From sequence record OR525700: 64,000 bases of DNA. The stretch is one strand, 5' to 3'. This DNA comes from Escherichia phage vB-Eco-KMB37. The notes under the pieces were generated by a model that was not told the DNA's origin, did not search any database, and saw only the letters and a list, made by a program, of their open reading frames with translations. The translations under genes were made by a program, and so were the position numbers. Shown in pieces: positions 2,760 to 3,517 of this stretch; position 1 is the stretch's first letter; every line of letters starts with the position of its first letter.

Positions 2760-3242
2760 ATGGAACAACAAAAAGATAATACTATTGCAAAATTTGCTCG
2801 TCCAGAAGTAATGGTTGAAATTGATCTGGATGAAGGACGCAGTGTAAAATTTAGAGTTCTCAAGTGGAGTCCAACTAAAGTTTTTGAAAGGATTCCAGAA
2901 CTAGGTAGTGTACTAGCTGTTCCTATGACAATGTATAATACTGCTCTTATGTCAGCAGACGAAGATCTAGAAGCTCGTATTGCTATGGCGCTGATCCAAT
3001 TATTCAGTGGTCTGGAAGAAAAAAACTTAGCCGCATTCTTACGTAAAATTTTAGATGAAGTTTACACAGAAGCAGGTCACAGTGTTTCCGATAATTTTGA
3101 TGAATTGTTTTTTGCTCACCCAGAATTAGTTGTTGACTTAGCTGCAAAAGTTCTTGAGGTGAACTATGCCCCTTTTTTCAAACGAGGTTTCGGAAAACTG
3201 TTGACCCAATTTCAAGGAATAGAGACTCTAGCGAAGAGTTAA
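2760..3242 (+). CDS. tail assembly chaperone (G-like, zero-frame product)
   Basis: 160 aa ORF between tube and tape measure; contains slippery heptamer near its 3-prime end with a -1 frame ORF continuing downstream. Confidence 0.65.
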   Translation: MEQQKDNTIAKFARPEVMVEIDLDEGRSVKFRVLKWSPTKVFERIPELGSVLAVPMTMYNTALMSADEDLEARIAMALIQLFSGLEEKNLAAFLRKILDEVYTEAGHSVSDNFDELFFAHPELVVDLAAKVLEVNYAPFFKRGFGKLLTQFQGIETLAKS

Positions 3243-3517
3243 GTCCGGCAATTAAATCAGCAATTGAAATTGCCTCACAAACCCTTAGCTTGACATGGTA
3301 TGAAGTAATTCTTTGTAAGGTAATTAAGAATACCTCCGAAACCTTGTCCTCGTTAGATAATTACGGTGTAGATTATCTACTTAAAATTTATGAATATTTA
3401 ACATTTGAAGACTATGTACAAGATCTTCACGTTAAAGATGCGGATATTAAACGTGGTCAACAGAGAACAATAAGAGAACTGGATACGGCTATGAAAAAAT
3501 TAATTCCAGATTCATAA
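2760..3517 (+). CDS. tail assembly chaperone, predicted -1 frameshift fusion product (GT-like, about 252 aa)
   Basis: Zero-frame 2760-3179 joined after a -1 slip at 3173-3179 to the frame ending at 3517; conserved position upstream of tape measure. Confidence 0.55.
3173..3179 (+). promoter_or_regulatory. -1 programmed ribosomal frameshift slippery site T_TTT_TTC
   Basis: Heptamer X_XXY_YYZ with zero-frame codons TTT (3174-3176) and TTC (3177-3179); the -1 frame is open from 3173 through 3517 with no stop, joining the 2760 ORF to the 3290-3517 ORF. Confidence 0.7.

What the first reader, a model, noticed from the sequence alone, without database searches (positions are those of the whole stretch)
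2760..3517. Canonical -1 programmed frameshift in the tail assembly chaperone pair
The heptamer T_TTT_TTC (3173-3179) lies near the end of the 160 aa chaperone ORF, and the -1 frame is open from there to 3517. This reproduces the conserved G/GT-type chaperone frameshift located between tube and tape measure genes. It confirms the module identity and predicts a fusion protein of about 252 aa made at low frequency.
Basis: partly seen in the sequence, partly recalled or inferred. Interest (0 to 1): 0.45.

Follow-up and report, generated by a model that had tools for sequence, protein, structure and literature searches.

The report
Tail chaperone -1 frameshift site, phi92-type phage
This is the ordinary "two proteins from one start" ribosomal frameshift that long-tailed phages use to make their tail assembly chaperones, here in a phi92-like E. 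coli phage whose public annotations miss it.

Summary
T_TTT_TTC (3173-3179) lies in phase (CCT TTT TTC) at codons 139-140 of a 160-aa tail assembly chaperone gene (2760-3242, Pfam Phage_TAC_15). That gene sits between the tube gene and the tape measure gene of a phi92-like myophage (Justusliebigvirus, over 99% identical). The -1 frame opens at 3158 and runs to 3517, giving a 252-aa fusion.

Comparison supports the reading strongly. The heptamer is identical and in phase in 16 aligned representative sequences, in 34 further distinct metagenomic loci and in the FelixO1-like phage Moogle. The codon before it changes (Pro, Cys or Ser) but always ends in T. Other invariant residues vary freely in codon choice. 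Five Vibrio phages of the same Pfam family carry a different in-phase heptamer, A_AAT_TTT.

The downstream ORF has no conserved start codon or ribosome binding site. I found no conserved downstream RNA structure. A Shine-Dalgarno-like GAGGTGA lies 10 nt upstream.

The mechanism is the known G/GT (P2 E/E+E') type. Moogle's GenBank record already annotates a joined chaperone, and a 2025 paper proposes the same for related families. None of the 24 phi92-, phAPEC8- and rV5-type (and Vibrio) records I opened annotates it. It is a new member of a known kind, of low interest beyond correcting annotation. No experimental evidence exists.

The parts
2237..2716 (+). Tail tube gene (phi92 gp131 homologue). 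It is the upstream neighbour that defines the module.
   Evidence: phrog_280 E=1.8e-36 and Pfam KPP10_Orf10. Homologues are annotated as tube protein in 4MG and 05F01.
2760..3242 (+). Tail assembly chaperone short form (TAC-N, 'G-like'), 160 aa, equivalent to phi92 gp132. This is the 0 frame.
   Evidence: PF21822 Phage_TAC_15 E=1.6e-22, 80.8 bits (cutoff 22). phrog_3840 E=4.4e-54. 100% identical to phi92 gp132.
3156..3162 (+). Shine-Dalgarno-like GAGGTGA, complementary to the 16S rRNA 3' tail, 10 nt upstream of the heptamer. It is a possible upstream stimulator (inferred).
   Evidence: Read from the sequence. GGAG or GAGG lies 9-14 nt upstream of the slip site in 30 of 39 distinct relatives, against a 4% background. 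It is absent in 9 of 39, so it is not obligatory.
3155..3157 (+). Last stop codon (TGA) in the -1 frame. The -1 frame opens at 3158, 15 nt before the heptamer.
3170..3176 (+). Overlapping in-phase heptamer C_CCT_TTT, found only in the phi92/phAPEC8 subfamily. A slip here gives the same fusion sequence (..APFFQTR..).
   Evidence: with codon reading.
3173..3179 (+). Slippery heptamer T_TTT_TTC. P-site codon TTT (F139) and A-site codon TTC (F140). This is the proposed site of the -1 tandem slip.
   Evidence: It is identical and in phase in all 16 aligned representative sequences, in 34 distinct IMG/VR loci and in Moogle. F139 is TTT in 16/16 and F140 is TTC in 16/16, while invariant F31 and F117 mix TTT and TTC.
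3179..3517 (+). -1 frame extension ('T-like' part), 112 codons plus stop. With 2760-3179 it forms the 252-aa long form (TAC-NC, 'GT-like').
   Evidence: phrog_16039 E=3.2e-45 over residues 38-109. The -1 frame is open for 101-141 codons in every relative examined.
3290..3517 (+). The piece that GenBank records annotate as a separate 75-aa gene (phi92 gp133) starting at TTG. It is most likely not an independent gene.
   Evidence: The phi92 record lists a ribosome binding site for most neighbouring genes but none for gene 133. The 18 nt before the TTG, GCCTCACAAACCCTTAGC, hold no SD. Annotated starts in relatives scatter from -3 to +83 codons after the slip site and use TTG, ATG, GTG or CTG.
3537..5516 (+). 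Tape measure protein gene (phi92 gp134), with a TTG start preceded by GGAGG. It is the downstream neighbour and presumed client of the chaperone.
   Evidence: phrog_16051, 1327 bits. Annotated as tape measure in phi92.

Best explanation
The window is a phi92-like E. coli myophage. Ribosomes translating the tail assembly chaperone gene (2760-3242) mostly terminate at 3242 and make the 160-aa short form.

A minority slips back one base. With tRNA-Phe on TTT (3174-3176) in the P site and tRNA-Phe on TTC (3177-3179) in the A site, both tRNAs re-pair to TTT/TTT (3173-3178). Translation then continues in the -1 frame from CAA at 3179 to the stop at 3517. The result is a 252-aa long form with the same 140 N-terminal residues and a new 112-residue C-terminal part. 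That part consists of a linker that is variable between relatives and is modelled as disordered in a low-confidence structure prediction, followed by a predicted helical domain.

Shown here: the sequence anatomy, homology to tail assembly chaperones, and nucleotide-level selection on the heptamer and on -1 frame openness.

Inferred from lambda G/GT and P2 E/E+E': the slip is ribosomal and of low efficiency; the short and long forms together coat the tape measure protein (gp134 homologue); the C-terminal extension recruits tube protein (gp131 homologue) onto the baseplate; neither form stays in the virion.

The slip probably needs only the heptamer. The SD-like GAGGTGA 10 nt upstream may help. 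No downstream RNA structure is involved.
For: (1) Anatomy: phase, overlap and a 252-aa product.

(2) Family: PF21822 Phage_TAC_15 and phrog_3840, with the gene order sheath, tube, chaperone, tape measure.

(3) The window's TAC/-1 ORF region has matches in 135 phage records. In 16 aligned representative sequences from Stephanstirmvirinae and Vequintavirinae, down to 23-30% amino-acid identity, T_TTT_TTC is in phase at the same place and the -1 frame is open for 119-141 codons.

(4) Codon control: invariant residues F31, F117, P46, P55, A77, D114 and L127 vary in codon, whereas F139 is TTT in 16/16 and F140 is TTC in 16/16.

(5) All 34 distinct IMG/VR loci carry T_TTT_TTC. The preceding codon is CCT, TGT or TCT, so the amino acid changes while the third base stays T.

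(6) Five Vibrio phages of the same Pfam family carry a different in-phase heptamer, A_AAT_TTT, as the only in-phase heptamer in the gene. Each has 120-127 open -1 codons, and the preceding codon is GCA or GTA, always ending in A. A site made of three A and four T fits ribosomal slippage, not polymerase slippage.

(7) No independent start. The window has no ATG, GTG or TTG in the -1 frame between 3158 and 3290. POP15 and pEa55 have none before the conserved LxW motif. Annotated starts are not conserved. Keeping the linker free of -1 stops has probability 0.08-0.32 per genome, with a product of 3e-8 over 9 lineages that are not fully independent.

(8) In rV5, GGT TTA keeps the -1 frame motif RFR but changes F to L in the 0 frame.

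(9) Moogle (FelixO1-like, same Pfam family) has GGA AGT TTT TTC at the homologous LEANFGSFF, and its record holds a joined 'tape measure chaperone'. PMC12846349 proposes the same -1 frameshift for Vandenendeviridae and Andersonviridae.

(10) In E. coli, UUN A-site codons and all-pyrimidine ZZN codons are the more shift-prone classes (PMC4066793). P2 E/E+E' shifts at TTTTTTG without a downstream structure (PMC3091744).
Against: There is no experimental evidence of a fusion product for this phage or any close relative, and I found no paper on phi92 or rV5 that mentions it.

There is no stimulatory downstream structure: z = +0.26 for 3180-3260, RNAalifold gives 0 pairs over 16 relatives, and 10 single folds give z between -1.9 and +1.7. 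Efficiency could therefore be very low.

The IMG/VR loci were retrieved with a peptide pattern that contained FF, so only their codon choice counts as independent evidence, not the presence of FF.

Sequences are related by descent, so the counts overstate the number of independent events.

Amino-acid conservation in the -1 frame within the overlap itself is weak because it is a linker. The RFR/GGTTTC conservation there is confounded by the 0-frame residues G-F.
Confidence: 0.85

Rival explanations
1. The downstream ORF is an independent small gene, as GenBank annotates it (phi92 gp133). It would be translated from its own start (TTG 3290), and the heptamer and overlap would be incidental.
For: Many records annotate a separate 43-80 aa ORF here. 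PHROGs holds it as its own family, phrog_16039. All 17 database homologues are 64-84 aa proteins, although these are gene-caller outputs.
Against: No SD precedes TTG 3290, and the phi92 record gives no ribosome binding site for it while listing one for most neighbours. Start positions and codons are not conserved, ranging from -3 to +83 codons and using TTG, ATG, GTG or CTG. POP15 and pEa55 have no start codon before the conserved LxW motif. The conserved stretch upstream of the annotated start, which a low-confidence model predicts as a helix at residues 23-35, would be lost. This rival does not explain the synonymous-site freezing of the heptamer. Several records do not annotate the ORF at all and leave a gap of about 290 nt.
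Confidence: 0.06
2. The same fusion protein is made by RNA polymerase slippage on the T6 run rather than by the ribosome. One extra U in a fraction of transcripts would put the downstream sequence in the -1 frame.
For: The site is a homopolymer, T6, preceded by C3-4. The related-family motif is described as 'GTTTTT'. The title of Vladimirov et al. [quoted passage not shown]
Against: From my own knowledge, productive transcriptional slippage in bacteria usually needs runs of about 8-9 or more A or T, and the run here is fixed at exactly 6 in all sequences. The Z base C is invariant even though TTT would be synonymous in the 0 frame and the -1 codon it starts varies (CAA, CAC, CGG). A longer run would favour polymerase slippage but is never seen. 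The Vibrio clade uses A_AAT_TTT, which is not a homopolymer yet is a perfect in-phase ribosomal heptamer. Phase is kept in every case.
Confidence: 0.05
3. There is no recoding. The overlap and heptamer are a chance or relict arrangement, and only the 160-aa protein is functional.
For: No experimental product is known. There is no downstream stimulator. In-phase heptamers are common in this AT-rich genome, 94 in the window.
Against: Only this one of 94 heptamers is followed by a long -1 ORF. The -1 domain is conserved as protein across subfamilies (phrog_16039 and phrog_10409). The heptamer is frozen at synonymous sites. The arrangement persists across at least four phage lineages, two of which use different heptamers.
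Confidence: 0.02

Closest known systems
Phage P2 E / E+E' tail chaperones (-1 frameshift at T_TTT_TTG)
   Same: It is a contractile-tailed phage. The gene pair lies just upstream of the tape measure gene. The slippery site is a T6-based X_XXY_YYZ heptamer, the two products share a start, and no downstream RNA structure is involved (PMC3091744).
   Different: The Z base is C rather than G. The proteins are longer (160/252 aa against 91/142 aa) and belong to a different Pfam family (PF21822). Sequence homology to P2 E was not tested here. The P2 frameshift is reported in the literature (PMC3091744, citing earlier work); this one is only predicted.
Phage lambda G / GT (Xu, Hendrix & Duda 2004 conserved tail-assembly frameshift)
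   Same: It has the same position between the major tail or tube gene and the tape measure gene, the same overlapping -1 ORF without its own start, and a minor fusion product. The functional model (short form plus fusion bind the tape measure; the T part recruits tail tube subunits) is borrowed from lambda.
   Different: From my own knowledge, lambda is a siphovirus and its heptamer is G_GGA_AAG. I showed no sequence similarity to lambda G or T. Here an SD-like element lies 10 nt upstream.
Citrobacter phage Moogle 'tape measure chaperone' (FelixO1-like), and the 2025 proposal for Vandenendeviridae and Andersonviridae (PMC12846349)
   Same: It belongs to the same Pfam family PF21822. The same T_TTT_TTC sits at the homologous ..(L)E(V/A)N(Y/F)xxFF.. 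position with GGAGG 13 nt upstream. A joined CDS is annotated in GenBank. The paper describes a conserved GTTTTT motif and an uninterrupted -1 frame.
   Different: Similarity to the window protein is weak, about 30% over 96 residues. The paper names Stephanstirmvirinae and Vequintavirinae as related taxa, but the passages I retrieved did not extend the frameshift to them. In the phi92 subfamily the base before the T run is C, not G.
E. coli dnaX -1 frameshift (upstream SD plus slippery heptamer plus downstream hairpin)
   Same: It has an X_XXY_YYZ heptamer with an SD-like sequence about 10 nt upstream. PMC4066793 searched for SD-like stimulators 6-17 nt upstream of the motif.
   Different: There is no downstream hairpin here. 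[quoted passage not shown] The SD-like element is missing in 9 of 39 relatives.
Phage T7 gene 10A/10B -1 frameshift
   Same: A Phe UUC codon occupies the A site of a U-rich slip site in an E. coli phage. PMC12846349 cites it as a precedent for poly-T signals.
   Different: It involves the capsid protein, not a chaperone. From my own knowledge the heptamer is G_GUU_UUC, which is not fully canonical.

Membership tests
G/GT-type tail assembly chaperone pair with programmed -1 frameshift (Xu, Hendrix & Duda 2004) | The gene pair lies between the major tail or tube gene and the tape measure gene. | tested here: met
   Tube 2237-2716, chaperone 2760-3242, -1 ORF to 3517, tape measure 3537-5516.
G/GT-type tail assembly chaperone pair with programmed -1 frameshift (Xu, Hendrix & Duda 2004) | The downstream ORF overlaps the 3' end of the upstream ORF in the -1 frame and lacks its own credible start and ribosome binding site. 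| tested here: met
   The -1 frame is open over 3158-3517 and overlaps the 0 frame by 85 nt. The first start codon in that frame is TTG 3290, with no SD. No ribosome binding site is annotated in phi92.
G/GT-type tail assembly chaperone pair with programmed -1 frameshift (Xu, Hendrix & Duda 2004) | A slippery sequence in the correct phase lies inside the overlap. | tested here: met
   T_TTT_TTC at 3173-3179 (CCT TTT TTC), plus the overlapping C_CCT_TTT.
G/GT-type tail assembly chaperone pair with programmed -1 frameshift (Xu, Hendrix & Duda 2004) | The arrangement and slip site are conserved in diverged relatives. | tested here: met
   16 aligned representative sequences, 34 distinct metagenomic loci and Moogle all have T_TTT_TTC; 5 Vibrio phages have A_AAT_TTT; synonymous sites are frozen.
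G/GT-type tail assembly chaperone pair with programmed -1 frameshift (Xu, Hendrix & Duda 2004) | Two proteins with a common N-terminus are actually produced, the longer one at a few percent. | not testable with these tools
   This needs a Western blot, mass spectrometry or a reporter assay. I found no published data for phi92 or rV5-type phages.
G/GT-type tail assembly chaperone pair with programmed -1 frameshift (Xu, Hendrix & Duda 2004) | Both products are required for tail assembly and are absent from virions. | not testable with these tools
   This needs genetics and proteomics.
Pfam PF21822 Phage_TAC_15 | The score is above the curated gathering threshold over most of the model. | tested here: met
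   80.8 bits against a cutoff of 22, residues 29-144 on model positions 3-123 of 127. rV5 gp051, Moogle and Vibrio S4-7 also match.
dnaX-type stimulated -1 frameshift | An SD-like sequence lies 6-17 nt upstream of the heptamer. | tested here: met
   GAGGTGA at 3156-3162, 10 nt upstream. 30 of 39 distinct relatives have GGAG or GAGG 9-14 nt upstream, against a 4% background. Function was not shown.
dnaX-type stimulated -1 frameshift | A stable downstream hairpin or pseudoknot lies 5-9 nt after the heptamer. | tested here: not met
   z = +0.26, 0 consensus pairs, and no consistent fold in 10 relatives.
Transcriptional (RNA polymerase) slippage recoding | A long homopolymeric A or T run, about 8-9 or more, independent of reading phase. 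| tested here: not met
   The run is exactly T6 in all sequences and always in phase. The Vibrio clade has A3T4. The length threshold is from my own knowledge.

The most novel reading that the evidence does not exclude
The slip site may be one ancient recoding cassette shared by the whole PF21822 chaperone family (FelixO1-, rV5-, phi92- and Vibrio-type large myophages). On this reading it works without any downstream RNA structure, and its main stimulator is pairing of the 16S rRNA tail with an in-gene SD-like GGAGG 10-13 nt upstream, as in dnaX. In the Vibrio clade the heptamer has moved 4 codons upstream and changed to A_AAT_TTT, and the GGAGG has moved 3 codons with it, which would indicate selection on the spacing. 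To my knowledge, upstream SD stimulation has not been demonstrated for a phage tail chaperone frameshift.
Probability: 0.3. Interest if true: 0.4.

Novelty: new member of a known kind. Interest (0 to 1): 0.2.

Why it matters
The main value is correcting annotation. None of the 24 GenBank or RefSeq records I opened for phi92-, phAPEC8- and rV5-type phages and the Vibrio relatives annotates the long chaperone form. They list a start-less 'hypothetical protein' or leave a gap of about 290 nt. All 17 homologues in a 5.8-billion-protein database are such fragments. These phages are widely isolated for therapy, so a correct structural gene set is useful.

The comparative data also give a clean example of nucleotide-level selection on a slip site, with an identical heptamer across very diverged phages and a different heptamer in a sister clade. 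They offer a testable hint that an upstream SD-like element, not a downstream structure, tunes the shift. The finding does not change what is known about how tail chaperones are made.

Tried and rejected
**Downstream stimulatory RNA structure.** Single-sequence folds of 3180-3260 and 3140-3300, folds of 10 relatives, and RNAalifold on 16 relatives gave nothing above shuffled controls and 0 consensus pairs. I rejected it.

**Invariant GGTTT(C) 7-10 nt downstream as an RNA signal.** I rejected this. Its distance to the heptamer differs by 3 nt between subfamilies, and Moogle lacks it. It is explained by dual coding, G-F in the 0 frame and R-F-R in the -1 frame.

**Structure of the -1 part.** The AlphaFold2 model with 17 sequences was poor (pLDDT 59.8, pTM 0.27) and all-helical, with residues 1-19 disordered. 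I ran no fold search because the matches would be meaningless.

**Solved structures and other libraries.** The only weak hit was 5ir0_A 'ORF19' at E=0.093, which I did not use. NCBIfam had no family. Weak 'dodecin' hits to the -1 part fall far below the cutoffs and I ignored them.

**Natural in-frame fusions.** I searched for 'Rosetta stone' fusions of the two parts among database homologues and found none.

**Literature.** I found no paper describing a frameshift in phi92, rV5, Stephanstirmvirinae or Vequintavirinae chaperones. The Vladimirov et al. 2022 paper is not held.

**Whole -1 ORF stop-free test.** This test (P about 0-0.001) was too generous, because it included the part everyone accepts as coding. 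I replaced it with the linker-only test.

**tRNA genes.** None is present in the window.
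Full report
**What the window is.** Bases 2200-5600 are 99.3-99.7% identical to Escherichia phages VEcB, alia and phi92 (genus Justusliebigvirus, subfamily Stephanstirmvirinae), which are large contractile-tailed phages. The genes around the finding are:
- a neck terminator protein (50-751)
- tail sheath (772-2178; phrog_205, E=3e-104)
- tube (2237-2716; phrog_280)
- a tail assembly chaperone (2760-3242; Pfam PF21822 Phage_TAC_15 at 80.8 bits against a cutoff of 22; phrog_3840, E=4e-54)
- a small -1 frame ORF (phrog_16039)
- the tape measure protein (3537-5516; phrog_16051)
- baseplate genes

In phi92 the three central genes are gp132, gp133 and gp134.

**Checking the observation.** The chaperone ORF starts at ATG 2760 and stops at 3240-3242, giving 160 aa. 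Bases 3173-3179 read TTTTTTC. The 0-frame codons are CCT (3171-3173), TTT (3174-3176) and TTC (3177-3179). The heptamer is therefore X_XXY_YYZ in the phase that lets P-site and A-site tRNAs both re-pair one base back. The -1 frame has a stop at 3155-3157, opens at 3158 and stays open to TAA at 3515-3517. An overlapping heptamer, C_CCT_TTT (3170-3176), is also in phase, and a slip there gives the same protein..APFFQTR...

**Is it more than chance?** In-phase heptamers alone are not rare in this 37.7% G+C window. There are 94 in 59 long ORFs, about 0.5% of codons. Only the pair at 3170 and 3173 is followed by a long -1 ORF of 112-113 codons; the next longest is 31. TTTTTTC itself is under-represented, 13 against 25.8 expected, and this is its only in-phase copy in a long ORF.

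**Comparative evidence in enterobacterial relatives.** I opened representative records from the phi92, phAPEC8, Klebsiella, Citrobacter, rV5, PVP-SE1-like, CR3-like, Av-05, Erwinia and Serratia lineages. In the 16-sequence alignment, identity to the window chaperone falls to 23-30%.
- In all of them T_TTT_TTC sits in phase at the homologous ..NYxxFF.. position, and the -1 frame is open for 119-141 codons.
- An internal control shows this is nucleotide-level selection. Across the 16 aligned sequences, other invariant residues use mixed codons: F31 is 7 TTT and 9 TTC, F117 is 5 and 11, and P46, P55, A77, D114 and L127 all vary. F139 is TTT in 16/16 and F140 is TTC in 16/16.
- Forty-five IMG/VR loci (34 distinct) all have T_TTT_TTC. 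The preceding codon is CCT, TGT or TCT, so the residue changes among Pro, Cys and Ser but the third base is always T. These loci were retrieved with a peptide pattern containing FF, so only the codon choice is independent evidence.
- The final C is also fixed. TTT would be synonymous in the 0 frame, and the -1 codon that begins with this C varies (CAA, CAC, CGG).

**A sister clade with a different site.** Five Vibrio phages (S4-7, qdvp001, VnaP, 496E54-1 and 1.084.O) lie within the same Pfam family (shown directly for S4-7) and share 27-40% identity with S4-7. They have no FF at that position. Each has A_AAT_TTT in phase four codons upstream, at (A/V)-N-F. It is the only in-phase heptamer in each gene, it sits inside the overlap, and 120-127 open -1 codons follow it. 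The preceding codon is GCA or GTA, again always ending in the base the heptamer needs. A heptamer of three A and four T fits ribosomal tandem slippage and is not a polymerase-slippage run.

**The downstream ORF is not a separate gene.**
- phi92's record gives a ribosome binding site for most neighbouring genes but none for gene 133.
- The window has no ATG, GTG or TTG in the -1 frame between 3158 and 3290. The 18 nt before TTG 3290 contain no SD.
- Annotated starts in relatives range from 3 codons before the slip site to 83 codons after it. They use TTG, ATG, GTG or CTG, and many cut into the conserved domain.
- POP15 and pEa55 have no start codon at all before the conserved LxW motif.
- Some records annotate nothing here and leave a gap.
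- The linker between the slip site and the conserved domain stays free of -1 stops in every lineage. The per-genome probability is 0.08-0.32, and the product is 3e-8 over nine lineages that are not fully independent.
- In rV5 the sequence GGT TTA keeps the -1 frame motif R-F-R while changing Phe to Leu in the 0 frame.
- All 17 database homologues of the -1 part are 64-84 aa fragments, and none is fused.

**Stimulators.** There is no downstream structure. For 3180-3260 the minimum free energy is -12.5 kcal/mol against -13.3 for shuffles (z = +0.26). For 3140-3300 z is +1.0. RNAalifold predicts 0 pairs over 16 relatives. Ten single folds give z from -1.9 to +1.7 with no common shape. This matches P2 E/E+E', which shifts at TTTTTTG without a hairpin (PMC3091744).

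Upstream, GAGGTGA (3156-3162) is complementary to seven bases of the 16S rRNA tail and ends 10 nt before the heptamer. GGAG or GAGG lies 9-14 nt upstream in 30 of 39 distinct relatives, against 4% of positions in the window. In the Vibrio clade the GGAGG lies three codons further upstream, moving with the heptamer. Nine of 39 lack it, and it overlaps a conserved L-E-V peptide. I therefore treat it as a possible enhancer that has not been shown to act. PMC4066793 reports that UUN A-site codons and all-pyrimidine ZZN codons are the more shift-prone classes in E. coli, and its authors searched for SD-like stimulators 6-17 nt upstream of the motif.

**What is already known.**
- Citrobacter phage Moogle (FelixO1-like) belongs to the same Pfam family. 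It has GGA AGT TTT TTC at the homologous LEANFGSFF with GGAGG 13 nt upstream.
- Moogle's GenBank record holds a joined 'tape measure chaperone', and its genome paper mentions a translational frameshift.
- A 2025 paper proposes a conserved -1 frameshift with a GTTTTT motif for Vandenendeviridae and Andersonviridae and names Stephanstirmvirinae and Vequintavirinae as related taxa. The passages I retrieved did not extend the claim to them (PMC12846349).
- I found no paper describing it for phi92 or rV5.
- None of the 24 records I opened in these subfamilies and the Vibrio clade carries a joined CDS.

**Mechanism, with its basis.**
- Shown: the anatomy, the family membership, and selection on the heptamer and on -1 frame openness.
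- Inferred from lambda G/GT and P2 E/E+E': most ribosomes stop at 3242 and make the 160-aa form. A small fraction slips at T_TTT_TTC and makes the 252-aa form. Both forms bind the tape measure protein. The extension recruits tube subunits, and neither form remains in the virion. A low-confidence model (pLDDT 59.8) gives the extension a disordered linker at residues 1-19 followed by helices at 23-35, 40-55 and 61-108.

**Rivals.** Independent initiation, polymerase slippage and chance are each contradicted by specific results above. I give them 0.06, 0.05 and 0.02.

**Verdict.** This is a new member of a known kind. It is useful for annotation and as a tidy comparative example, but unsurprising to a specialist. 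Interest is 0.2.

Noticed in passing
window 2720-2739: A terminator-like hairpin (AAAGGGCAGAAATGCCCTTT followed by a T run, readable on both strands) lies in the 43-nt gap between the tube gene and the chaperone gene. The phAPEC8 record annotates a terminator at the same place. It may lower transcription of the chaperone and tape measure genes relative to sheath and tube.
   Followed up: partly
window 5522-5584: A strong terminator-like hairpin (5522-5545) lies right after the tape measure gene. An 11/12 sigma-70-like promoter (5555-5584) follows it, which suggests a transcription unit boundary before the baseplate genes.
   Followed up: no
window about 1723-1815 (L001 2524-2616): The phi92 RefSeq record annotates a 'Hypothetical tRNA' inside the tail sheath gene. 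ARAGORN finds no tRNA anywhere in the 64-kb window, so that feature looks spurious.
   Followed up: partly
window 3020-3026: Another in-phase heptamer, A_AAA_AAC, lies inside the chaperone gene. The -1 frame is closed around it (the -1 frame only opens at 3158), and the heptamer is not conserved outside the genus. I presume it is not used.
   Followed up: partly
L017, L069-L072 (Vibrio phages S4-7, qdvp001, VnaP, 496E54-1, 1.084.O): This sister clade within the same Pfam chaperone family (shown directly for S4-7) uses a different slip site, A_AAT_TTT at (A/V)-N-F, four codons upstream of the enterobacterial FF site. The SD-like GGAGG is shifted upstream with it in 3-4 of the 5 phages.
   Followed up: partly
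records MG065639, MG065645, MG065656, MG065689 and others: Records named 'Campylobacter phage' with host C. jejuni are 99.6% identical to this E. coli phi92-type phage over 3.4 kb. The host label looks doubtful.
   Followed up: no
L015 1900-2757 (phiTE); L070 1568-1919 (VnaP): In phiTE and VnaP, extra ORFs sit between the chaperone -1 ORF and the place where the tape measure gene is expected. In VnaP one is annotated as a putative homing endonuclease. This suggests mobile-element insertion at this junction.
   Followed up: no
L011 1551-1919 (rV5 gp050); L009 635-1107 (Ro1): rV5 gp050 is annotated from a CTG codon right at the slip site, which is an artefact of taking the longest ORF. In Raoultella phage Ro1 the tube gene is split into two CDS, possibly from a sequencing error or a real disruption.
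   Followed up: no
window 3186-3191 (GGTTTC) and homologous positions: GGTTT is invariant in 16 relatives downstream of the heptamer, but at two different distances. It is best explained by dual coding (G-F in the 0 frame, R-F-R in the -1 frame) rather than by an RNA signal. In rV5 the -1 motif is kept at the cost of a 0-frame change.
   Followed up: yes
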